From an uncultured Lachnospiraceae bacterium (lineage in GTDB: Bacteria; Bacillota; Clostridia; Christensenellales; UBA1242), in assembly GCA_964606505.1 (NCBI GenBank), contig CAZSGM010000001.1:18859-82858 (forward strand): 64,000 nt of DNA, in the 5' to 3' direction. The position numbers were made by a program, and so were the translations under genes. The notes below the pieces were generated by a model. The model was given only the letters and a program-made list of their open reading frames with translations, was not told the origin of the DNA and ran no database searches. Of the stretch, positions 2,014 to 53,963 are shown one piece after another (the stretch's first letter is position 1; every line of letters begins with the position of its first letter).

Positions 2014-2058
2014 ATGTTTGCATTAATTTTGTGTTATTACATTTCGCCTATCTAACAT

Positions 2059-2090
2059 AAAACAAGGCGCAAACCTTTTGCGCCCTGTTT
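2059..2090. repeat. 32-bp direct repeat copy 1 (hairpin GGCGCAA-ACCT-TTGCGCC, terminator-like)
   Basis: AAAACAAGGCGCAAACCTTTTGCGCCCTGTTT is identical to 6866-6897. Stem-loop flanked by A/T runs. Confidence 0.9.
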
Positions 2091-2273: not shown

Positions 2274-3824
2274 TTATACTTTAATACTATCTAGGAAGTT
2301 TTTTAAATTAGTTAAATCGCTATACGACAACTGAAAGACAAAATTTTCAGCGCAATTCGCGACTTGACTTTCAAAAAAACTAGCCCGCGCTTCATTTTTG
2401 GTTATGCCCAAAATTTTAGTTGCTACTGACACAAATGCGTTTTTAATGTTTGAATTTCTATATATGAGGACGCTCTTCATTGAGTTCTTAACGCTTTCCT
2501 TTAACGTAAATCTAATTAATTTAATGTTATTCAAAGTGTATTCAGTTAAATCGTACAACTCAAGAATAACGTCAAACCTCCCCGAGTACAACTCTTTTGC
2601 TTGTTCGCCAGTAAATACCCCATATTGCACATCTTTATTTGCCATTATCAGCGTTCTTAAATTCAACACATCTTTTAGTTGATATGTAAAATCTATTACA
2701 TAAACGCAATCTTGCGAGTGGCTGAGGGTTTTATTTTCTTTTTGCTTAAGGTAGTTAGATACTGACATTGAGTTGCCATCTTTTTCTTGTTTGTTAAGTA
2801 TAAATAATAAATTATTCTCATTCACTGCATCGTTTTTACATATATGCGACGCTATATCATTAAAATTAACGGCAACTTGGCTGCTGGCCTCTAATGACTT
2901 TTTGCCATGCGTATAAATGTCATACTCCTCGCTATATTCCAGTTTATCAAACGCTTTAGGTAAAATGTTGCAAACATAAAGGTCGCTTCTATAGCCTAGC
3001 GCTTCCGCTTTTTTATAGACATTAAAGTTTGCTATTATTTCCTTAAAGTATACAGAAAGTTTTTGCATAGCGCGTTGCACCTTGTAACCAATCGCGGGAG
3101 AAAGTTCAGCAGACTTATAACACAAGTATATTGTCGCAAATTTATCTTTGGAACATTCAATTGCGCGCAATAAAAATAACGACATCCCAACAGGCGTATA
3201 TGGAGGGTCAGTAAATACAACATCAAAACTTCTTTGAGCAGAAAGTGGACATCCCAACCTAAAATCACTATACAAAACCTTAATATTTAACTTGAAATCG
3301 CGTGCTGCTTGCGCAATAAAATTTAAGACGTCATCATCTATATCTAAAACTTCAATTTTATAATCATTAAACCCCACCTTACTCAACGTATACGCTAAAG
3401 CGATACTTGAAAAATCGTGGTCTCCTAAAAATAAAATTTTGCAGTTTGCAACATCGTGATTGTCAATAATATACTTCGCTCTCTTTACCAATGTTTCTGG
3501 AACCGCAGACACGTGGTCTAAATTCATTTTATGTTTGTCGAATTTAGAAACAATTTTTTCTATTTCCCCGCAAATACTCTCAAAATCAATCTCCTTGCCA
3601 CTAGCAAAATCACTTTGCAATAAATAGTCATCCCTAAACATGTAATGCTCGCCGGAAATTTCGCAATAATCATCCAAAACATCTTTTATAAACTTATATC
3701 CAACCCCCAATTCAAAGCAAAGCGAATGAATATTGTTGTGCTTTTTTGCCTCAGTCAAAATATTGATGGCAACCTTACTTAAACTGCCAAACTTTTCATA
3801 ACATTTTTCTCTTACATTTTCCAT
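2274..3824 (-). CDS. BpsA/DUF43-like Rossmann-fold transferase with an uncharacterised ~210-aa C-terminal extension
   Basis: The ORF-track start is TTG at 3842; ATG at 3824 has GAGG 6 nt upstream. Motifs ILFLGDHDFSSIALA, FDVVFTDPPYT and FNVYKKAEALGYRSD parallel the GDDDLTS / TDPPYT / FN.Y..AE motifs of the DUF43 branched-chain polyamine synthase family as recalled. Confidence 0.55.
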   Translation of the reverse strand: MENVREKCYEKFGSLSKVAINILTEAKKHNNIHSLCFELGVGYKFIKDVLDDYCEISGEHYMFRDDYLLQSDFASGKEIDFESICGEIEKIVSKFDKHKMNLDHVSAVPETLVKRAKYIIDNHDVANCKILFLGDHDFSSIALAYTLSKVGFNDYKIEVLDIDDDVLNFIAQAARDFKLNIKVLYSDFRLGCPLSAQRSFDVVFTDPPYTPVGMSLFLLRAIECSKDKFATIYLCYKSAELSPAIGYKVQRAMQKLSVYFKEIIANFNVYKKAEALGYRSDLYVCNILPKAFDKLEYSEEYDIYTHGKKSLEASSQVAVNFNDIASHICKNDAVNENNLLFILNKQEKDGNSMSVSNYLKQKENKTLSHSQDCVYVIDFTYQLKDVLNLRTLIMANKDVQYGVFTGEQAKELYSGRFDVILELYDLTEYTLNNIKLIRFTLKESVKNSMKSVLIYRNSNIKNAFVSVATKILGITKNEARASFFESQVANCAENFVFQLSYSDLTNLKNFLDSIKV

Positions 3825-3851
3825 AATCGACCTCAAATACAATTAAATGCA

Positions 3852-3881
3852 ATCAAGGATTGCAAAACTGCAATCCTTGAT
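3852..3881 (-). terminator. perfect 13-bp-stem hairpin between the precursor gene and the downstream transferase (attenuator or transcript stabiliser)
   Basis: ATCAAGGATTGCA-AAAC-TGCAATCCTTGAT. The weak T tract on the minus strand suggests partial read-through. Confidence 0.55.
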
Positions 3882-3895
3882 ATCAAAAACACAAA

Positions 3896-4012
3896 TTAGT
3901 TATTGTCTTCTCCTTTCTCGCCATATTCAGCTGAACCATTACGCTCGCCGTCTTGCGGTTTAGATTTTTTACTCATAGTAATTATTTCGATTTTTCCTAT
4001 TTTTTTAATCAT
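3896..4012 (-). CDS. candidate lasso-peptide precursor (38 aa)
   Basis: Below the ORF-track size cutoff. GAGGAGG lies 8 nt upstream of the ATG. Peptide MIKKIGKIEIITM/SKKSKPQDGERNGSAEYGEKGEDNN has Thr at -2, Ser1 and Asp8. It sits directly downstream of the B1 gene. Confidence 0.55.
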   Translation of the reverse strand: MIKKIGKIEIITMSKKSKPQDGERNGSAEYGEKGEDNN

Positions 4013-4059
4013 ATTGTGTTCCTCCTCTTTAGAAAGTATATCACCTGAAAAATAATATG

Positions 4060-4287
4060 TCAAGCGCTTTTAGTAAATATATCACATTCATAAAGTTCTT
4101 CTAATAACTCAATATCTTGATTTTGAGCATTAAAACAAACCTCTCTGCCTTTTGATTTTATCAAAGTAAATATTGGCAAATATTCATCCCCCAACAAATA
4201 AAATTCCCCAGAGTTGAAATCTAATATTACAACATTTTTATCTATAATAACAAAGCTAATATTTGTTGCAATACAAAAATTATACAT
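4060..4287 (-). CDS. PqqD-like RiPP recognition element (lasso B1)
   Basis: 75 aa. FVIIDKNVVILDFNSGEFYLLGDEY fits the PqqD beta-strand pattern. The start overlaps the cyclase stop (ATGTATAA). Confidence 0.65.
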   Translation of the reverse strand: MYNFCIATNISFVIIDKNVVILDFNSGEFYLLGDEYLPIFTLIKSKGREVCFNAQNQDIELLEELYECDIFTKSA

Positions 4288-6214
4288 TAATCACCTCAAC
4301 TTCCGACCTATCTTGCACCTTACTATGTATTTTACACTGTTCCAACATCCATTCTCGCCCCAAATGAATTTCCTTAAGCCATATTTCCAAATAAATCAAA
4401 TTATACATATATTTCATTGCTAAATTAGGCACAAAATGAGGATCAAAAATATTTAACAAAAACACTTCTAATTCGCGCAAAAACTCATCTCTTTTTACGA
4501 TCCCATATTTTGCCAAAAATAGTTCTTTATCGTCCCCCATAAGTTCAGCAAGATTTTTGCTCTCTTTTTTAAATTTTAAAACTATTGAAGGTGCATAATT
4601 TGTTTTGAACTTTTGTTCTGTTATTATATCTGGCAAAATATCTTTGTATGCTTCTCGCAAAACTCTTTTTTGTACATAATATGACCCAACATCACCCTTG
4701 CTTATGTCATAATGTATGTATGGCGGTATTTGTTGAGCTAAAGTATAAATTGATATATCTAACAATGGATGCACAAATTCATATCCATCATTTCGCTCAT
4801 CATCAACAATCCCCTTAGGAAACATGAAATCATAAGCAAATCTTCTAGCCCAAAACTTCAACACTTTACTGTCTCTATAATTATTCCCCTTTTGACTTTT
4901 ATTCGTTTTTTGCATTTCTTTCGTAAAAAATGACGGATACCCTACTTTGTCATCTTCTTTCCAATAATTTTTTCTATAATAGTAGTTATTCAAAAATGGA
5001 ATAAATTGAGCATATTTGTATAAATAATTATCCTTCTTTTGCTGTTTCATTATAGTTTTATGTGCCATAGCCTCTGAACGATTTCCACAATATTTAAACA
5101 CATCTTGACAATACCTAGTGCCCATAAATAGGTAATCTCCGCCATCCCCACCAAACAATAAAGAAACATTGTCCTTTTCTAATTCAGCAGATAAATGATA
5201 CGAGAAACTATCATTTCCTATACAACAAGGTCCGTTAATATTTTTAATATAATCACGCCCCATGACTGCATTGCATATAGAATTGCCACTATTTTGATAC
5301 AAAATTTTGCATTTTACTCCAAGTTTTTTTACTAACTTGCGCACTATTTCAGAATCATTACAACTAAAATATAAAGGATTATTAGATGTTGCATGATAAC
5401 ATATCACCCTGTCTTTATATCCCAAATCAATTAAAGATGCAAGTATAACTGCGGAATCAATGCCCCCACTTAATGAAACGCCTATTGAACCATCACCATA
5501 TGAAAGTACGAACTGATTAACAACACGGTTTAAAGTATCCCGAAACTTTTTATAGTATTGCTCCTTATCCGAAAAATTTAAGAATTCTCCATTGTAAAAA
5601 ATTGCATTGTCATATATGCTTTTATATTGAATATTCCCTTCTTTAATCTTACATTTTACACCATTGGGGATTTTTTTTATTCCACTAAAGTAAGTTTGAG
5701 TATCAAAATTTTCATTATTAACAAATAATTCAGTGTTGGTTAACTTGCACTTGTCAACATTTACTTTAATTGCAACCTCATCGCATAGTAACAATAATCT
5801 TATATCATTTGAAAAGAAAATGCCATCTCCGTTTGTATAATAAAAAAATGCATTAAACCCGTAATAATCATTAAAAATAGTAATTGAATTATCTTTGCTC
5901 GCCATTAACACCGTGTATCTTCCACTGCAACCACCCGTTTCTAATATATGCTCAATATTTTCAATATGATCAATACTATCATTGTTATAAAATTGTTCAT
6001 TATAAAAAACGCACCCATCAACACACATTTGCACCGTACAAATGCTTGCCGTTGATTTTTTTATATTTATATTCATCAAAAAAAACGAACTTTCACATCT
6101 ATTCAACTCTGACATGTCTTCAACAGAAAAATTTAGCCATGCTTTAACTTTTTTAAGCCAATCATTTTCAATTTTGTTTTTATTACGCCCCATATATCCA
6201 AAATAAAGTTCCAT
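4280..6214 (-). CDS. asparagine-synthetase-like lasso peptide cyclase (C protein)
   Basis: PP-loop VSLSGGIDSAV. No N-terminal glutaminase Cys2. The preferred start is the ATG overlapping the B2 stop (TAATG), with GGAG upstream. Confidence 0.8.
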   Translation of the reverse strand: MELYFGYMGRNKNKIENDWLKKVKAWLNFSVEDMSELNRCESSFFLMNINIKKSTASICTVQMCVDGCVFYNEQFYNNDSIDHIENIEHILETGGCSGRYTVLMASKDNSITIFNDYYGFNAFFYYTNGDGIFFSNDIRLLLLCDEVAIKVNVDKCKLTNTELFVNNENFDTQTYFSGIKKIPNGVKCKIKEGNIQYKSIYDNAIFYNGEFLNFSDKEQYYKKFRDTLNRVVNQFVLSYGDGSIGVSLSGGIDSAVILASLIDLGYKDRVICYHATSNNPLYFSCNDSEIVRKLVKKLGVKCKILYQNSGNSICNAVMGRDYIKNINGPCCIGNDSFSYHLSAELEKDNVSLLFGGDGGDYLFMGTRYCQDVFKYCGNRSEAMAHKTIMKQQKKDNYLYKYAQFIPFLNNYYYRKNYWKEDDKVGYPSFFTKEMQKTNKSQKGNNYRDSKVLKFWARRFAYDFMFPKGIVDDERNDGYEFVHPLLDISIYTLAQQIPPYIHYDISKGDVGSYYVQKRVLREAYKDILPDIITEQKFKTNYAPSIVLKFKKESKNLAELMGDDKELFLAKYGIVKRDEFLRELEVFLLNIFDPHFVPNLAMKYMYNLIYLEIWLKEIHLGREWMLEQCKIHSKVQDRSEVEVINV

Positions 6215-6705
6215 TATATATTCTCCAAACAAAATTTTTTAATAATATGATATTCTTTGTAATCAGTAAAATAATTTAATATTTGTTTATCTCCTACTTC
6301 TAACCAAGAATGAGATAGCACCTTTCCGTTTTCAATTTTAACCCCAACGATAATTTGAGAATCCTTATTGGAAAATATACATAACAAATGCGCCAACAAC
6401 GTTATACTTATACAACTTGAAACAATATTATTATGTAAATCTTGCTGCTGGATATATTTTAATATTTTTTTTATTTTCTTAATAGATAATCTACACAAAA
6501 ACTTATATTTATCAACTTTTTTACATAAGTTTAGAGATAGCGATTTAATTGTTTCTATGTATCCCATATTATAGATGGATGCTCTAATTATTTGGTGCAA
6601 CAAAACGCACTGCATTAAACTTGTTTTTATGTATTTCATAAGATCAATTCTAGCATTTCTTTTGCTGTTTGTCAAGTATTTGCCTGCTTTAAGGGTTTTT
6701 AACAA
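6214..6705 (-). CDS. transglutaminase-like cysteine protease (lasso B2); start uncertain (TTG in the track)
   Basis: SSCISITLLAHLL ... SHSWLEVGDKQIL matches the Cys ... HAWVE pattern of lasso leader peptidases. Confidence 0.7.
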   Translation of the reverse strand: MLKTLKAGKYLTNSKRNARIDLMKYIKTSLMQCVLLHQIIRASIYNMGYIETIKSLSLNLCKKVDKYKFLCRLSIKKIKKILKYIQQQDLHNNIVSSCISITLLAHLLCIFSNKDSQIIVGVKIENGKVLSHSWLEVGDKQILNYFTDYKEYHIIKKFCLENI

Positions 6706-6865
6706 GGCATTTCCACAGCATAAACTAACATTCTCAATGCAACCTTATAAAAAACATTTTCGATATAAATGGCTTTTTGAGTTTTGCTATTTATATTGCC
6801 ATAGTACTATGTTTACTAAAGCACTTTTGTTTCTCGATTTAAGCGACCATTGTACTTATAAAAAC

Positions 6866-6897
6866 AAAACAAGGCGCAAACCTTTTGCGCCCTGTTT
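6866..6897. repeat. 32-bp direct repeat copy 2 (terminator-like hairpin downstream of the MMPL gene)
   Basis: Identical to 2059-2090. Confidence 0.9.
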
Positions 6898-7026: not shown

Positions 7027-10000
7027 TTATTTTTTATCTTTTGTTTTGCTTGCAGTCTTGCTATTTGCGGATTTCTTTGAGGTCGTTTTGCTTTCCGCTT
7101 TAGAAGCCGACGTTTCGCTTTCCGCTTTGGTGGTGGCTGCTTTACTGTTTGTCCTTGCGGCGACTTTCTTAGTTTCTGCTTTTGCGGATGTTTTTACAGC
7201 TCCGCCTTTGCTTGTGGAAGTTTTTACGGGTTTTACGTCCGCGGTTTTATCTGTTCCCTTTTTGGTTTCAGCTTCGACTTCCACTTTGTCAGTTTTATTT
7301 GTTTTCTCTTCTGCAGTAGGCGTGCTGTCGCCCACGAGTGCGATAGCGTCGCCGCTTTCAAGTTGTGCAACTTCACTGCTTGCTACAGTTGGCGCACTCA
7401 CGAGTGGCACAAACTTAGCCTTTAAGGTTGTTTTCTCAATAAGTTTATCGAAAATCAACAAACATTGCGGCAATACAAACAGGATTGTCAACACTGACAA
7501 CAATGCACCGCGTCCAATTAAGTTTCCGATTGACCTAAGCAATGGGATTGTCGAAACCCAACTAATTGTAAACGCTGCAAGAACAAGGATTGTTCCACTT
7601 GTGATGATTGTAGTGAACGAGTTCCCAATCGCGGTTTTGATTGCCTCAAACTTGTTTTGCTTGCGGCGGGCAGTGAGATACCTATCGGTAAGCAAGATTG
7701 CGTAATCGATAGTTGCGCCCATTTGAATTGCCATTGCAAGCAAGTAGCAAATGAAGTAAACGCTGTCGCCCATTATGCTTGAAAGCCCGAGGTTAATCCA
7801 AATCGCGCCTTGAATTGCAAGTACCAAAATAACTGGAATACTTGCCGACCTAAATGTCAACAACACGATAAGGAAGATTAGCAAAATTGTTATGAGGTCA
7901 GTCTTTAACTTATCCGTACTAAACACTTCCATTGTACTTATAACATTCTCAGAGTTGCTAACAATATATGCACTTTCAAAATTCTCATTCAAATAATCTT
8001 GCAAGTCTCTGATAAAATCAAGTGCTTTTTCGTCTGCAACATCCAAATTCATATTGAAGAGCATTCTGTCGCAGTTTTCGCTAACGAGCATTTGTTCTGC
8101 GCTTGAAAGTGTAGCGTAGTAACCGTCAATTGTCGCCTGCTTAAATACCCCAATTTGTGTGCGGATTTCTTGGTTATTGTGCGCGTATTCCACAAACTGC
8201 AAGTTGTAAATTGTGCTGCTTGCGCTGCTAGCGTCTTGCCCATAGTAGGTAAACATTGCGCCAACTTGCGCCTGCGTTAAGCCATACTCACTGCAAATTG
8301 CTTGCGCTGTCAACTTACTAAACGCAGCCGTATTGTATGCGTCTGAAATTACTTCAACTTGGCTTCTACCCTCAACATCGTTTTCATAAATGTACGCCAA
8401 AATCTTGTAGTTTTGGACAGTGTCAGTATCTTGCAATGTATCGACACCTAAAATTGCCTTAAAGACGTTATTCATTGCGTCTTGGCTTGATAGCGCGTAG
8501 GTAGCCTGCGCTTGCGCCGCTGTCAATGCCACATACAAGTTGTTTGCGGCAATCTGCGCATAGAGGTTGTTGACTGTGGCTTCCGCCGCTGCAGGTAAAA
8601 CCGTTCTCTCCAAGTGGAGTGCGGTTACCACATCGGCAAGGTAAACGCTGTCCGTTGCAGGGTTTTTACCAAGCAAAGTAAACAGTCTATCAATTTTTGT
8701 AACAACTTCCGTATCCGCTTCGGTTACGCCGAACATAACCATAATTTGCGCTTTTGTCATCGTTTGCGCATAGAAGTCAGTTGTTGCAAGCGCGGTGCTT
8801 GAGTTTATGTAGTTTTGCTCAAACTTATCGGCGTCCGCGAAGTAATTGTTGATATATTCAACAAGCGCCCTTTCAGCCGCAACACCTGCGTCTCTATCGT
8901 CGTTTTTGCCGACCATAACTACTAGCGCATTTTGTTTGCCAAATGTTTCCTCAATCTTCGCTTGGTCAGTCGCTACAACCCCTGCACTTGAGCCGCTTTC
9001 AACGACGTAAGTGAAGTTGACGTTGCTTTCAAAATATAGACCGACGGCAACAATGCACAAAAACAGAATTGGCATAACAAAGCGCGTCTTTTTAGCAAAA
9101 GTTCCAATCTTATCCATTTTTGGCATAAAGCTGCGATGACGAGTTTTTTCAATTCCTTTCGCAAGCATCATAATTACGCTTGGCATAAAGAACAGAACCG
9201 CCAAAACGCCTATGAACACACCCTTCGCCAAAACCATACCGATATCGAACCCGATTGTGAAGTCCATAAACATCAACGCGACAAGCCCCGCGATAACCGT
9301 CAATGAACTTGCGACAATCGCAAGGAACGACCCCGCGAGTGCTTTAGTCATCGCTGTTTTTGCGTCAACACCCTTCTCCATTTCCTCACGGTATCTGTGG
9401 CAAAGCACGATACAGTAGTCCATAACAAGTGCAATCAACATAATCGAACTTATCGACTGTGTAACGCACGAAATCTCGCCCATCACAAGGTTTGTACCCA
9501 TATTGATGACAATTGAGCAGCCGATAACAATCAGGTAAACAAGCGGCTCGAGCCACGAACGCGACGTTAGGAACAAAACCAAAATTACAATCGCAACCGC
9601 AATCAACAGGATAATCATCAACTCCGAGCCAATCGCCTCTTGACTGCCCACGGTTTCAACCGCCGAACCGCCGAGCGCAAAGTCGTACCCGTCGAGGAAC
9701 GCCTTTAAGCTGTCTATCGACTCCTTAGTTTCGGGACTGTAATCGCTCTTTTCAAAGAAAACGCTCAAAAGTGCCTTGTTGTCTTTGTAGCACGCTTCTT
9801 TTTCTGCGTCAAATGAAATGCTTGCAACACCTGTAACGTCATCACTAGCCAAAATATCTTTAACCAGTTGAGTCGCGCCCTCTTTAGTTATGTTTTCAAC
9901 CATAATGCAGGCGGTTCCGCTTGCCCCAAATTCGTCCTCCATAACCTCAAGCGCAACTTTTGTACTTGAGTCGTTAGGAAGATACTTGGTAAAGTCGTAG

Positions 10001-18775: not shown

Positions 18776-18946
18776 TTCCATCCTCCTTACTATAGTATAC
18801 AAAAAACTCTATGCCTTGAGTGCATAGAGTATCATTGCGCAAAAACCCTGCGTTGTGCGCTTAATTTACCTACACATCTCCTCGGCAAGCTTGCTAGGCA
18901 ATTTGCGGGTAACCCCACTTGCTGTCTATGGCGATAGTTTCTTGTA
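18776..18946 (-). ncRNA. probable rplJ (L10) leader, an autoregulatory 5' UTR
   Basis: ~170-nt structured UTR between a near-consensus promoter and the rplJ SD (for example the hairpin CTCTATGCACTCAAGGCATAGAG). Family assignment rests on position only. Confidence 0.4.
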
Positions 18947-18952
18947 GGTAAT

Positions 18953-53702: not shown

Positions 53703-53779
53703 CGCGGGGTAGAGCAGTTTGGCAGCTCGTCGGGCTCATAACCCGAAGGTCGTTGGTTCAAATCCAGCCCCCGCTACCA
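53703..53779 (+). tRNA. initiator tRNA-fMet (CAU)
   Basis: CGCGGGG acceptor with a 1-72 mismatch and three G-C pairs closing the anticodon stem (TCGGGCTCATAACCCGA). CCA encoded. Confidence 0.9.
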
Positions 53780-53789
53780 TTTTTTTTAT

Positions 53790-53866
53790 GGCGGTGTAGC
53801 TTAGCTGGTTATAGCGTCCGGTTCATACCCGGAAGATCAAAGGTTCGAATCCTTTCACCGCTACCA
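53790..53866 (+). tRNA. elongator tRNA-Met (CAU)
   Basis: GGCGGTGTAGCTTAGCTGG... with anticodon loop TTCATAC. Closely resembles Bacillus elongator tRNA-Met as recalled. CCA encoded. Confidence 0.8.
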
Positions 53867-53888
53867 GCGTGGGCGCATTGCCCAAGTT

Positions 53889-53963
53889 GGCCCTATGGTC
53901 AAGCGGTTAAGACACCACCCTTTCACGGTGGTATCGTGGGTTCGAATCCCGCTAGGGTCACCA
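53889..53963 (+). tRNA. tRNA-Glu (UUC)
   Basis: GGCCCTATGGTCAAGCGGTTAAGACACCACCCTTTCACGGTGG... Cloverleaf checked by hand. CCA encoded. Confidence 0.88.

What the first reader, a model, noticed from the sequence alone, without database searches (positions are those of the whole stretch)
2274..6705. Compact lasso-peptide (RiPP) gene cluster with atypical order B2-C-B1-A and no exporter
Four co-directional genes are tightly linked, and the first three are translationally coupled. The B2 stop and C start share TAATG at 6212-6216, and the C stop and B1 start overlap in ATGTATAA at 4280-4287. They encode a transglutaminase-like Cys protease (SSCIS ... SHSWLE) and an Asn-synthetase-like ATP-dependent cyclase (SGGIDS PP-loop, no glutaminase Cys2). 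The other two encode a 75-aa PqqD-like RRE and, 47 nt further on, a 38-aa peptide with a strong SD. That is the complete minimal lasso machinery. Placing the precursor after the enzymes is unusual. The absence of an ABC exporter or known tailoring gene (kinase, methyltransferase) is also unusual. The cluster is visibly more AT-rich than aspS and the MMPL gene that flank it, which suggests horizontal acquisition.
Basis: partly seen in the sequence, partly recalled or inferred. Interest (0 to 1): 0.8.

Follow-up and report, generated by a model that had tools for sequence, protein, structure and literature searches.

The report
Lariocidin-type lasso cluster with new alkyltransferase
This is a real five-gene cluster for a knotted "lasso" peptide related to the new ribosome-targeting antibiotics lariocidin and triculamin, but its peptide is not positively charged and the usual self-protection enzyme is replaced by an uncharacterised methyltransferase-like enzyme that turns up beside such peptides in three bacterial phyla.

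Summary
Pfam supports B2 (Transglut_core3) and C (Asn_synthase). B1 is supported only by profile comparison.

First, the 38-aa precursor has the triculamin/lariocidin signature: a short leader ending T-M, then the ring SKKSKPQD-G. The cyclase is 26% identical over its full length to lariocidin-type cyclases. So this is a divergent canonical member of that family.

Second, a fifth gene lies inside the reported coordinates (2274-3824, 516 aa, called "T" here). It has a BpsA_C/class-I methyltransferase fold and is conserved after the precursor in every close relative.

T homologues also sit next to leaderless triculamin-type clusters in Actinomycetota and Chloroflexota. There they are mutually exclusive with the known immunity acetyltransferase TriT (6 versus 8 loci, none with both). 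T lacks BpsA's GDDD motif (it has GDHD) and carries a DPPY amino-methyltransferase motif.

My reading is that T is an alternative self-resistance or tailoring N-alkyltransferase, acting on the peptide or on the ribosome. This is inferred, not shown.

Other unusual features are real: the B2-C-B1-A order, no exporter, a core with net charge about -1 instead of +6, low GC, and a bracketing 37-nt repeat.

Verdict: a new variant of a known kind.

The parts
6861..6897 (.). Upstream copy of a 37-nt direct repeat. It contains a G+C-rich terminator hairpin that ends the MMPL gene and marks the upstream edge of the low-GC cassette.
   Evidence: two copies, 35/37 identical, 4807 nt apart; a 27-nt core of this repeat (three mismatches allowed) matches only these two sites in 64 kb, with 0 expected by chance; terminator-like, 14-bp stem.
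6647..6675 (-). Promoter-like site P1 (TTGACA-17-TAGAAT with an extended TG). It ends about 8 nt before the B2 ATG, which suggests a leaderless or nearly leaderless B2-C-B1 transcript.
   Evidence: 11 of 12 matches. A comparable TTGACT-17-TAAAAT stands before B2 in L002. This is a consensus match only.
6214..6639 (-). B2, the leader peptidase (141 aa from ATG 6639). It has a transglutaminase-like Cys protease fold with Cys76 and His110, and Asn122 at the third triad position.
   Evidence: Pfam Transglut_core3 1.8e-7. NCBIfam lasso_biosyn_B2 6.8e-6, below its cut-off. C76, H110 and W112 are invariant in an alignment that includes lariocidin-type B2 proteins.
4280..6214 (-). C, the ATP-dependent lasso macrolactam cyclase (644 aa). 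It has the SGGIDS PP-loop and no N-terminal Cys nucleophile.
   Evidence: Asn_synthase 4.8e-21. 26% identity over the full length to the lariocidin-type cyclase of L143, E 3e-68. Only about 17 close relatives in 5.8 billion proteins.
4060..4287 (-). B1, the RiPP recognition element (75 aa, PqqD-like).
   Evidence: No direct HMM hit. hhalign against lariocidin-type B1 proteins, all four of which hit PqqD: probability 80%, E 1.4e-5. Top PDB profile hits are TfuB1 and TbiB1, E 0.16. Its homologue in L008 hits PqqD at 5e-6.
4035..4063 (-). Promoter-like site P2 dedicated to the precursor (TTGACA-17-TATACT with TG). Its -35 hexamer overlaps the B1 stop codon.
   Evidence: An equivalent TTGAC(A/T)-17/18-TA(T/G)A(C/T/A)T stands before the precursor in L002, L003 and L005.
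3896..4012 (-). A, the precursor MIKKIGKIEIITM|SKKSKPQDGERNGSAEYGEKGEDNN. The 13-aa leader has Thr at -2. The 25-aa core is predicted to form a Ser1-Asp8 macrolactam.
   Evidence: Sequence. Orthologous precursors in L002-L008. Weak NCBIfam hits to lariocidin/triculamin models, 0.005-0.02. Leader and ring align with lariocidin precursors.
3848..3885 (-). Conserved stem-loop between A and T (core stem AAGGATTG...CAATCCTT) followed by a T-rich tract. It probably acts as a partial terminator or transcript stabiliser that sets the ratio of precursor to T.
   Evidence: dG -21.3 kcal/mol, z -4.2, 0 of 200 shuffles fold as well. The stem sequence is conserved in four loci.
2274..3824 (-). T, a 516-aa three-domain protein: an acidic winged-helix N-domain, a BpsA_C-type class-I alkyltransferase domain (GDHD, VLDIDD, SDFR, TDPPYT), and a second degenerate methyltransferase-like domain with a helical tail (TKNEAR). 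It is a candidate self-resistance or tailoring N-alkyltransferase.
   Evidence: Pfam BpsA_C 2.3e-32. AF2 model pLDDT 92.8. Fold hits to BpsA, then METTL5, RsmG and PrmA. C-terminal domain model pLDDT 95; best hit DIMT1/KsgA at 1.4e-4. Conserved in the cluster and linked to triculamin-type loci in other phyla.
2054..2090 (.). Downstream copy of the 37-nt direct repeat and terminator hairpin. It marks the downstream edge of the cassette, ahead of the aspS promoter.

Best explanation
Window 6897-2054 (minus strand) is a self-contained 4.8-kb cassette for a leader-dependent lasso peptide of the triculamin/lariocidin family.

How it most likely works:
1. Promoter P1 drives the translationally coupled genes B2, C and B1.
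2. A second, conserved promoter P2 with a strong SD drives the 38-aa precursor. A conserved hairpin after the precursor lets only part of the transcripts run on into the fifth gene, T.
3. B1 binds the short leader (K-x-I-G-K-I-E-x-I-T-M).
4. B2 (Cys76/His110) cuts after Met-1.
5. C adenylates the Asp8 side chain and joins it to the Ser1 amine around the threaded tail. This gives a 25-residue lasso with an 8-membered ring, SKKSKPQD.
6. T is a BpsA_C-superfamily alkyltransferase that has lost BpsA's GDDD motif (it has GDHD) and carries the DPPY motif of enzymes that alkylate nitrogen. It occupies the slot held in other triculamin-like clusters by the immunity N-acetyltransferase (TriT/GelT/LrcE).

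I infer that T is the cluster's self-resistance or tailoring enzyme. Most probably it N-alkylates (methyl, or possibly aminopropyl or aminocarboxypropyl) a conserved lysine of the lasso peptide (K2, K3, K5 or the tail G-x-K-G lysine).

Shown: gene content, homology, the architecture of the regulatory elements, and the cross-phylum linkage and mutual exclusivity with TriT.
Inferred: product structure, T's substrate and chemistry, and biological activity.

My sub-probabilities:
- Functional triculamin-like lasso pathway: about 0.9.
- T functionally tied to the peptide: about 0.8.
- T acts on the peptide rather than on the target: about 0.5.
For: Lasso machinery.

Precursor family:
- Thr at -2, the ring SKKSxPxDG and the tail G-x-K/R-G are conserved in 8 metagenomic relatives.
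- The same features are shared with lariocidin (SKKSKPGDGKFGRGVKRG), gelatinamin and triculamin loci fetched here. Those loci include S. triculaminicus and B. gelatini themselves.
- The literature defines this family (PMC12070363, PMC11451635, PMC13178200).

T belongs to the cluster: the arrangement B2-C-B1-A-T, or A-A-B2-C-B1-T, recurs in four different genomic contexts.

T is linked to the peptide family independently of the canonical machinery:
- T lies next to leaderless precursors with truncated cyclases in Kribbella, Nocardia beijingensis, Pseudonocardiaceae and other Actinomycetota.
- T also lies next to a leaderless precursor with a full-length cyclase in a Chloroflexota MAG.

Mutual exclusivity with TriT among triC-type loci: 8 loci have TriT only, 6 have T only, none has both, and 1 has neither (Fisher p about 0.0014). 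T sits where triT sits.

Enzyme features:
- G134-D-H136-D and D206-P-P-Y209 are invariant in 98 homologues.
- In BpsA, GDDD residues Asp159 and Asp160 position the dcSAM amine (PMC12979288).
- T and its N-domain are acidic (pI 6.0 and 5.0; family median 6.4). That fits a cationic ligand better than RNA.

Expression coupling: there is no promoter-like site between the hairpin and T. The promoter before A and the hairpin after it are conserved.
Against: - No product has been observed.
- The predicted lasso has net charge about -1, against +5 to +6 for the characterised family members. It also has Gln7 where Gly7 is 'almost invariant' and contacts the A-site tRNA in lariocidin. It may therefore not bind the ribosome, which weakens the case for any immunity need.
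- Most T homologues in genomes are orphans, with no lasso genes within 8 kb (75 of the 80 best loci). This includes the Clostridia MAG homologues at 46% identity. The family's basic function does not require the cluster.
- T's C-terminal domain most resembles KsgA/DIMT1 rRNA methyltransferases. The nearest non-BpsA folds to the catalytic domain are rRNA methyltransferases. Both favour the target-modification rival.
- The loci behind the exclusivity test are partly phylogenetically related, and their 8-kb windows are not centred.
- B1 has no significant direct HMM hit.
Confidence: 0.5

Rival explanations
1. T protects the target rather than the peptide. In this reading it is an N-methyltransferase that modifies 16S rRNA (h31/h34 region or the 530 loop) or a ribosomal protein at the lariocidin binding site. 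That would give Erm/KsgA-style self-resistance. The rest of the cluster works as described above.
For: - The DPPY motif is typical of m2G and m6A rRNA methyltransferases.
- Weak sequence hits to RsmD/Cons_hypoth95 (9e-4) and PrmC.
- Fold neighbours after BpsA are METTL5, PH1948, RsmG and RlmG.
- The C-terminal domain's best hit is the KsgA-family enzyme DIMT1 (E 1.4e-4).
- Lariocidin-resistance mutations map to h31 and h34 (U961, G1207, C1209, U1052), next to natural m2G966 and m2G1207 sites.
- Many syntenic orphan copies in Actinomycetota look like housekeeping or resistance rRNA methyltransferases.
Against: - T is acidic, and so is its winged-helix domain (pI 5.0). RNA methyltransferases are usually basic.
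- Lariocidin mainly contacts the rRNA backbone, so base methylation may protect poorly.
- The closest homologues by sequence and structure (BpsA, 2QM3) act on small polycations, not RNA.
- The C-terminal fold match is weak (TM 0.41, rmsd 12.5).
Confidence: 0.25
2. T is a true aminopropyltransferase. It would either make an unusual polyamine that counteracts the peptide or aminopropylate the peptide's lysines, raising its positive charge to produce the active compound. It would then be a maturation enzyme, not an immunity enzyme.
For: - Best sequence and fold matches are BpsA and 2QM3 (6e-36 / 7e-35).
- The active site is strongly acidic, with nine invariant Asp/Glu.
- The window peptide is unusually non-cationic, so a charge-adding modification would restore the family's character.
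- Microcin C maturation is a precedent for aminopropylation in RiPPs (established knowledge; papers listed).
Against: - BpsA's indispensable GDDD motif is GDHD in all 98 homologues, and DPPE is DPPY.
- BpsA's C-terminal acidic carrier tail is absent, replaced by a 200-aa domain.
- No SAM decarboxylase gene is in the cluster.
- T-linked actinomycete peptides are already cationic.
- Mutual exclusivity with an inactivating acetyltransferase points to immunity.
Confidence: 0.12
3. T is an unrelated neighbour with a housekeeping function, and the functional unit is only B2-C-B1-A.
For: Most T homologues are orphans. Relatives L007 (an ABC transporter follows B1) and L008 (other genes follow B1) lack T directly after B1.
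Against: - T follows the precursor in four distinct genomic contexts, behind a conserved hairpin and without its own promoter.
- T lies inside the segment bracketed by the 37-nt repeats and shares its low GC.
- T recurs beside triculamin-type precursors in two other phyla and is never found together with TriT.
Confidence: 0.08
4. The cluster is a decaying or silent remnant that makes no lasso peptide.
For: - There is no exporter.
- The leader is very short (13 aa).
- Asn replaces Asp at the B2 triad position.
- The cyclase and B2 score far below NCBIfam's lasso cut-offs.
Against: - All five ORFs are intact here and in a relative that has diverged to 51-84% protein identity, while the ring and leader motifs are preserved.
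- Promoters, SD and hairpin are conserved.
- Catalytic Cys, His and the PP-loop are intact.
- Cys-His-Asn triads are functional in papain-like enzymes (established knowledge).
Confidence: 0.05

Closest known systems
Lariocidin (lrc) and gelatinamin (gel) clusters of Paenibacillus and Brevibacillus: canonical triculamin-like lasso peptides
   Same: - Leader-dependent pathway with separate B1, B2 and a full-length C.
- The leader pattern G-x-[FI]-x-x-[VI]-T-[LM] is homologous.
- The ring is S/A-K-K-S-K-P-x-D-G with an isopeptide from residue 1 to Asp8, and the tail carries G-x-K-G.
- The cyclase is 26% identical end to end.
   Different: - Gene order is B2-C-B1-A-T instead of A-B1-B2-C-D1-D2-GNAT(-clostripain).
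- There is no ABC exporter, no GNAT and no clostripain-like transpeptidase, so no second ring (class V) is expected.
- The core has Gln7 instead of Gly7, a 4-residue loop insertion, five acidic residues and net charge about -1 instead of +6.
- The host is a low-GC Clostridia-like genome, and relatives are known only from metagenomes.
Triculamin (tri) non-canonical clusters of Actinomycetota
   Same: The same ring motif. A subset of these clusters carries a T homologue (34-42% identity in the catalytic domain) adjacent to the precursor, cyclase and ABC genes.
   Different: tri precursors are leaderless with a C-terminal follower, the cyclase is N-terminally truncated, and there is no B1 or B2. 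The window has a leader, B1, B2 and a full-length C. The characterised tri cluster uses the GNAT TriT, not T.
TriT / GelT / LrcE GNAT N-acetyltransferases (self-resistance by lysine acetylation of the lasso peptide)
   Same: They occupy the same cluster position and show the same pattern of association with triculamin-like precursors as T. The proposed logic is also the same: neutralise a functionally essential lysine amine.
   Different: The fold and cofactor are unrelated (class-I SAM-type alkyltransferase versus GNAT with acetyl-CoA). T's substrate is untested.
[quoted passage not shown]
   Same: An N-terminal winged-helix domain plus a Rossmann catalytic domain, alignable over about 270 residues (E 1e-35). 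They share the motifs LGDxDLTS, DIDER/DIDD, DLR/DFR and TDPP.
   Different: - GDDD becomes GDHD and DPPE becomes DPPY, both invariant in the T family.
- T lacks the C-terminal acidic aminopropyl-carrier tail.
- T has an extra 200-aa degenerate methyltransferase-like domain.
- The hosts are mesophilic bacteria, not thermophiles.

Membership tests
Canonical lasso peptide biosynthetic gene cluster | An Asn-synthetase-like ATP-dependent cyclase (C) with a PP-loop and without glutaminase activity | tested here: met
   Asn_synthase 4.8e-21. SGGIDS is present and the N-terminus is MELYFG, with no Cys2. Full-length homology to lariocidin-type cyclases. Note that the NCBIfam lasso cyclase model scores only 47 bits against a cut-off of 525.
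Canonical lasso peptide biosynthetic gene cluster | A transglutaminase-like Cys protease (B2) with a catalytic Cys and His | tested here: met
   Transglut_core3 at 31.5 bits against a cut-off of 26. Cys76 and His110 are invariant in an alignment that includes lariocidin-type B2 proteins. The third triad residue is Asn122.
Canonical lasso peptide biosynthetic gene cluster | A PqqD-like RiPP recognition element (B1) | tested here: inconclusive
   No Pfam or NCBIfam hit for the window protein. Profile-profile match to PqqD-positive lariocidin-type B1 proteins: probability 80%, E 1.4e-5. Top PDB hits are TfuB1 and TbiB1, at E 0.16 only. Size, position and sequence pattern all fit. No structure model was made.
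Canonical lasso peptide biosynthetic gene cluster | A precursor with Thr at -2, a small residue at core position 1, and Asp or Glu at core position 7-9 | tested here: met
   ...IIT-M|S1...D8. The same register holds in 8 relatives.
Canonical lasso peptide biosynthetic gene cluster | A threaded macrolactam product (-18 Da, resistant to heat and carboxypeptidase) | not testable with these tools
   Needs expression and MS/NMR.
Triculamin-like / lariocidin family of lasso peptides | A core beginning (S/A)KKSxPGDG, with the 'almost invariant PGDG' centred on the ring Asp (PMC12070363) | tested here: inconclusive
   SKKSKPQDG matches 8 of 9 positions, but Gly7 is Gln in the window, L002, L003 and L005. 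The more distant relatives L004, L007 and L008 keep PGDG or PADG. NCBIfam lariocidin/triculamin models hit at E 0.005-0.02, below their cut-offs.
Triculamin-like / lariocidin family of lasso peptides | A strongly cationic core rich in K, R and H | tested here: not met
   Predicted net charge is -1 for the window peptide and 0 to +1 for its closest relatives, against +5 to +6 for triculamin, lariocidin and gelatinamin.
Triculamin-like / lariocidin family of lasso peptides | Biosynthetic enzymes homologous to those of characterised members | tested here: met
   C at 26% identity over the full length, E 3e-68. B2 at phmmer 1e-8 to 1e-10. B1 by hhalign. The leader motif is alignable.
Triculamin-like / lariocidin family of lasso peptides | Ribosome (30S h31/h34) binding and antibacterial activity | not testable with these tools
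   Needs purified peptide. The changes in sequence and charge make this uncertain.
Class V lasso peptides (second ring from Lys2 to the C-terminus) | A clostripain-like transpeptidase (LrcF/GelP) in the cluster | tested here: not met
   No such gene lies in the cassette or within 10 kb upstream.
[quoted passage not shown] | A GDDD motif whose Asp159 and Asp160 position the dcSAM aminopropyl group | tested here: not met
   T has G134-D-H136-D, invariant in 98 homologues. The motif's role is taken from PMC12979288.
[quoted passage not shown] | A flexible C-terminal acidic cluster that carries the aminopropyl group | tested here: not met
   It is replaced by a folded 200-aa domain (pLDDT 95) with a TKNEAR helix.
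[quoted passage not shown] | The BpsA_C Rossmann fold with an N-terminal winged-helix domain | tested here: met
   Pfam BpsA_C 2.3e-32. PDB profile hits 6e-36 and 7e-35. Foldseek E 1e-16.
N-directed class-I methyltransferases ((D/N)PP(Y/F) group) | Motif IV DPPY together with motifs I-III for the cofactor | tested here: met
   D206-P-P-Y209, D161 (motif II) and D187 (motif III) are invariant. Fold neighbours are METTL5, PrmA, KMT9 and RsmG. The cofactor and acceptor are untested.

The most novel reading that the evidence does not exclude
The T family (BpsA_C fold with GDHD and DPPY motifs) would be a previously unrecognised, cross-phylum self-resistance or tailoring system for ribosome-targeting lariocidin/triculamin-type lasso peptides. 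It would act by N-alkylating the peptide's essential lysines or the 30S binding site. Hundreds of orphan copies exist: 558 loci among 185,579 species genomes, mostly Actinomycetota. These would form a pre-existing environmental reservoir of resistance to this new antibiotic class. The non-cationic, exporter-less Clostridia peptides would then represent a functional departure of the scaffold, with a different target or an intracellular role.
Probability: 0.35. Interest if true: 0.85.

Novelty: new variant of a known kind. Interest (0 to 1): 0.66.

Why it matters
Lariocidin and triculamin-type lasso peptides are a newly recognised class of ribosome inhibitors that evade common resistance mechanisms. 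The only self-resistance mechanism described so far is lysine acetylation by a GNAT.

- A second, unrelated enzyme family replaces that GNAT in clusters from three phyla, and it also occurs widely as an orphan gene. That is directly relevant to predicting resistance, to genome mining (current rules would miss both the gene and the role) and to the enzymology of the BpsA_C/DUF43 superfamily. The only characterised chemistry in that superfamily is polyamine branching in thermophiles.
- The window's peptide shows that the conserved SKKSxPxDG ring can be combined with an acidic tail. This probes which features of the scaffold are needed for folding and which for ribosome binding.
- The cassette is small (4.8 kb, five genes, own promoters), so every claim can be tested by straightforward heterologous expression.

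Tried and rejected
- A cyclase-based scan of GTDB species genomes found no close relative, only a weak Bacteroidota match. The clade is known only from metagenomic contigs.
- A precursor-alignment scan of genomes matched 63 stretches, but tblastn confirmation failed on the short query. I replaced it with explicit degenerate DNA patterns. The second scan was mostly chance matches: the Clostridia, Lachnospiraceae and Heliobacteriaceae hits are not precursors.
- Clustering the neighbours of T in actinomycete loci showed only lineage synteny (betaine ABC transporter, IclR, malic enzyme) and spurious high-GC ORFs. It gave no functional clue.
- The orphan T contexts L012 and L036 were uninformative.
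- The MMPL gene as exporter was rejected. A terminator separates it from the cluster, and it is absent from L003, L004 and L005.
- A GNAT, ABC transporter, kinase or clostripain gene near the window cluster: none within 10 kb upstream.
- An anti-phage defence reading: no PADLOC hits.
- RNA families: only tRNAs and an L10 leader, both far from the cluster.
- Literature searches linking lasso peptides with aminopropyl transfer, spermidine synthase, DUF43 or PF01861 found nothing relevant. No supplement text was held for PMC12070363.
- The precursor protein search needed a query of at least 40 aa. Run with the 55-aa ORF, it found only 3 clusters.
- Translation starting at internal Met13 (a leaderless, triculamin-style precursor) was considered and rejected. 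There is no SD before it, relatives have Leu or Lys at -1, and B1 and B2 are present.
- T esterifying the acidic tail, by analogy with BpsA's acidic carrier, was rejected because T-linked actinomycete cores have no acidic residues apart from the ring-forming Asp8.

Full report
**1. What is in the sequence**

All relevant genes are on the minus strand.
- A 141-aa B2 gene runs from ATG 6639 to 6214. The mechanical ORF starts at TTG 6705, but homologues are 141 aa and a promoter-like site lies at 6675-6647.
- B2 ends in TAATG, which is shared with the start of a 644-aa gene C (6214-4280).
- The stop of C overlaps the start of a 75-aa gene B1 (4287-4060) in ATGTATAA.
- After 47 nt, behind AGAGGAGG, comes a 38-aa ORF A (4012-3896).
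- A strong hairpin follows (dG -21.3 kcal/mol, z -4.2).

**2. Assignments**
- B2 hits Pfam Transglut_core3 above its cut-off, and C hits Asn_synthase at 4.8e-21.
- NCBIfam's lasso-specific models are hit but far below their cut-offs. These proteins are therefore divergent.
- B1 has no direct HMM hit.
- A profile of B1 and its six orthologues matches a profile of lariocidin-type B1 proteins (hhalign probability 80%, E 1.4e-5). All four of those proteins hit PqqD. The two best PDB hits are the lasso RREs TfuB1 and TbiB1, though not significantly.
- In B2, Cys76, His110 and Trp112 are invariant in an alignment that includes lariocidin-type B2 proteins. The third triad position is Asn122.

**3. 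The precursor places the cluster in a known family**
- NCBIfam gave weak hits of the 38-mer to the lariocidin and triculamin precursor models.
- The cyclase has only about 17 relatives in a database of 5.8 billion proteins, all metagenomic. Seven encoding contigs were recovered.
- Their precursors share a leader ending (G)KIExIT(M/L/K) and a core SKKSxP(G/Q/A)DG...G(V/E/D)(K/R)G.
- Pattern scans of GTDB genomes recovered two groups of known loci:
  - the triculamin producer S. triculaminicus and other leaderless precursors;
  - lariocidin/gelatinamin-type loci in Paenibacillus, the Bacillus licheniformis group, Brevibacillus gelatini and Xenorhabdus, with cores SKKSKPGDGKFGRGVKRG, AKKSKPGDGKHGRGVKKG and similar.
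- The window leader aligns with theirs (Gly at -8, hydrophobic residues at -6 and -3, Thr at -2). The window cyclase is 26% identical to a lariocidin-type cyclase over its whole length (E 3e-68).
- The published descriptions of this family are PMC12070363, PMC11451635, PMC13178200 and bioRxiv 10.64898/2026.07.03.736388.
- The window cluster is therefore a divergent canonical (leader, B1, B2, full-length C) member of the triculamin-like group.

**4. How it differs from the characterised members**
- *Gene order.* Lariocidin-type loci read A-B1-B2-C-D1-D2-GNAT. The window reads B2-C-B1-A-T. More distant relatives read A-B2-C-B1.
- *Exporter.* No ABC exporter is present. The adjacent MMPL gene is cut off by a 14-bp-stem terminator and is absent from the non-syntenic relatives.
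- *Core sequence.* The core has Gln7 where Gly7 is described as almost invariant. It also has a four-residue insertion in the loop and five acidic residues.
- *Charge.* The predicted lasso has net charge about -1, against +5 to +6 for triculamin, lariocidin and gelatinamin.
- *Rarity.* Only three precursor clusters of this type exist among called proteins.
- *Other enzymes.* No GNAT and no clostripain-like transpeptidase is present.

**5. The fifth gene, T**
- Pfam assigns residues 97-280 to BpsA_C (2.3e-32).
- A profile of 98 homologues matches P. furiosus 2QM3 and T. kodakarensis BpsA at 6e-36 and 7e-35 over the N-terminal 283 positions.
- The AF2 model is confident (pLDDT 92.8, pTM 0.93). 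Its best fold matches are BpsA, followed by N-directed methyltransferases: METTL5, PH1948, RsmG, RlmG, PrmA and KMT9.
- BpsA's indispensable GDDD motif, whose Asp159 and Asp160 hold the dcSAM amine (PMC12979288), is G-D-H-D in T.
- BpsA's DPPE is DPPY in T. Both changes are invariant across the family.
- BpsA's acidic C-terminal carrier tail is replaced by a well-folded 200-aa domain (pLDDT 95). Its best match is the KsgA-family enzyme DIMT1 (E 1.4e-4, TM 0.41), followed by weak hits to other methyltransferases. I read this as a degenerate second methyltransferase-like domain with a helical tail that carries the conserved TKNEAR motif.
- T is acidic: pI 6.0 overall, 5.0 for the N-domain, and a family median of 6.4.
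- T therefore fails the membership test for BpsA proper. It is a distinct subfamily of about 1,000 clusters at 50% identity. It occurs at 558 loci in GTDB species genomes.

**6. T is tied to the peptide family**
- In four of the five distinct genomic contexts recovered for cyclases at 36% identity or more, T follows directly. L002 is syntenic with the window, and L003, L005/L006 and L004 are in different contexts. The arrangement is A-hairpin-T in the first four loci, and B1 followed directly by T in L004.
- L008 has a partial T at the contig end.
- Some T loci fetched from genomes contain leaderless triculamin-type precursors with truncated cyclases directly beside T. These are Kribbella (two species), an Actinomycetota MAG and a Pseudonocardiaceae MAG.
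- The reverse search, starting from precursors, added Nocardia beijingensis and another MAG.
- A Chloroflexota MAG has a leaderless precursor (MSKKAHPGDG...) and a full-length cyclase divergent from T.
- Among triC-type loci, 8 carry a TriT-like GNAT and no T, 6 carry T and no GNAT, none carries both, and one with adequate flanks carries neither. Fisher's exact p is about 0.0014. The loci are not all phylogenetically independent, and the 8-kb windows are not centred.
- In S. cyaneofuscatus, the GNAT sits beside an HTH regulator next to triA-C-D. In the Pseudonocardiaceae MAG, T sits in the equivalent place beside an HTH regulator.
- TriT and GelT are experimentally shown self-resistance enzymes that acetylate essential lysines. 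TriT is required for heterologous production.
- The simplest inference is that T supplies the same need by different chemistry.

**7. What limits that inference**
- 75 of the 80 best genomic T loci have no triculamin-like precursor within 8 kb. This includes the Clostridia MAG copies at 46% identity.
- This pattern fits orphan immunity genes. It equally fits a housekeeping modification enzyme that has been recruited repeatedly.
- Lariocidin-resistance mutations map to 16S rRNA h31 and h34, near the natural m2G966 and m2G1207 sites. DPPY enzymes include m2G and m6A rRNA methyltransferases. A target-modifying role is therefore a serious rival, which I put at about 0.25.
- Against the target-modifying role, T is acidic, its closest relatives act on small polycations, and lariocidin mainly contacts the rRNA backbone.
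- The window peptide's lack of positive charge also raises the question of whether immunity is needed at all. T might instead mature the peptide. True aminopropyl transfer seems unlikely given the GDHD motif (about 0.12).

**8. Regulation and the boundaries of the cassette**
- A conserved sigma-70-like promoter stands immediately before the precursor in all four close loci. In the window its -35 hexamer overlaps the B1 stop codon.
- The hairpin after the precursor is conserved in sequence (AAGGATTG...CAATCCTT) and is followed by a T-rich tract.
- No promoter-like site lies between the hairpin and T. T therefore depends on read-through.
- The -10 box before B2 ends about 8 nt from its ATG, both here and in L002. 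This suggests a leaderless mRNA.
- A 37-nt direct repeat (35 of 37 identical) contains a terminator hairpin. It occurs only twice in the 64-kb window and brackets exactly the five low-GC genes, at 6861-6897 and 2054-2090.
- Cluster genes are 0.25-0.34 GC, against 0.42-0.45 for the flanks.
- This supports insertion of a five-gene cassette, T included, between the MMPL gene and aspS.
- The insertion is old. L002 has the cluster at the same site with aspS 96% identical, yet its cluster proteins are only 51-84% identical, and L002 has no such repeat.

**9. Verdict**
- I classify the finding as a new variant of a known kind.
- What is known: lasso peptides and the triculamin/lariocidin family.
- What I did not find described in the searchable literature:
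  - the BpsA_C-type partner enzyme and its mutual exclusivity with the GNAT;
  - the non-cationic core;
  - the gene order;
  - the absence of an exporter.
- No product or activity has been demonstrated.

Noticed in passing
window 2054-2090 and 6861-6897: A 37-nt direct repeat (35 of 37 identical) brackets exactly the five low-GC genes. Each copy contains the terminator hairpin GGCGCAAACCTTTTGCGCC. A 27-nt core of the repeat (three mismatches allowed) matches only these two sites in the 64-kb window. The syntenic relative L002 has no such repeat. It could be a target-site or terminator duplication from insertion of the cassette.
   Followed up: partly
window 3848-3885 (minus); L002 10330-10360; L003 2660-2690; L005 4930-4965: The stem-loop after the precursor gene keeps the same stem sequence (AAGGATTG...CAATCCTT) in four clusters whose proteins are only about 50-65% identical. 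That is more sequence conservation than a plain terminator needs. It may be a protein-binding or RNA-processing site.
   Followed up: partly
window 6639-6675 (minus); L002 about 7550-7581: The -10 box of the promoter-like site before B2 ends only about 6-9 nt before the ATG, and there is no Shine-Dalgarno sequence. The B2-C-B1 transcript may therefore be leaderless.
   Followed up: no
L008 4244-4675 and 10230-12784: A more distant relative (cyclase 33% identical) has the order A-B2-C-B1. These are followed by an acyl-carrier-like PP-binding protein, two unknown ORFs and a partial T homologue at the contig end. A GNAT and two phage-type integrases lie upstream. This could be a mobile variant with extra tailoring.
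   Followed up: no
L060 5261-9293 (Chloroflexota MAG DAHVFL010000005.1): A leaderless triculamin-like precursor (MSKKAHPGDGDYGKGDKG... plus a follower) sits next to a full-length 647-aa cyclase that starts MIAGICG, and divergent from a T homologue. This is a third cluster architecture that combines a leaderless precursor with an untruncated cyclase.
   Followed up: partly
L096, L098, L101, L105, L115 (Peregrinibacteria/Peribacteria MAGs); L090, L097, L107 (Lewinella/Saprospiraceae MAGs): Leaderless MSKKS(H/K/R)PGDG precursors with acidic or Ser-rich followers occur in candidate-phyla-radiation bacteria and in Bacteroidota. In most of these loci a full-length cyclase-like ORF lies nearby. These are, as far as I know, unreported hosts for this peptide family.
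   Followed up: no
L132 337-835 (Bacillus sp. NPDC094077): Four tandem, nearly identical precursor genes (core AKKSKPGDGTR(T/A)KGIRKGL) spaced about 155 nt apart.
   Followed up: no
L007 3189-7047: In this relative (cyclase 34% identical), B1 is followed by an ABC transporter and a 671-aa beta-lactamase-fold protein instead of T. That may be yet another accessory solution for export or immunity.
   Followed up: no
window 18791-18949 (minus); 53703-53960 (plus): A ribosomal protein L10 leader and three tRNA genes. These are ordinary housekeeping elements, unrelated to the finding.
   Followed up: no
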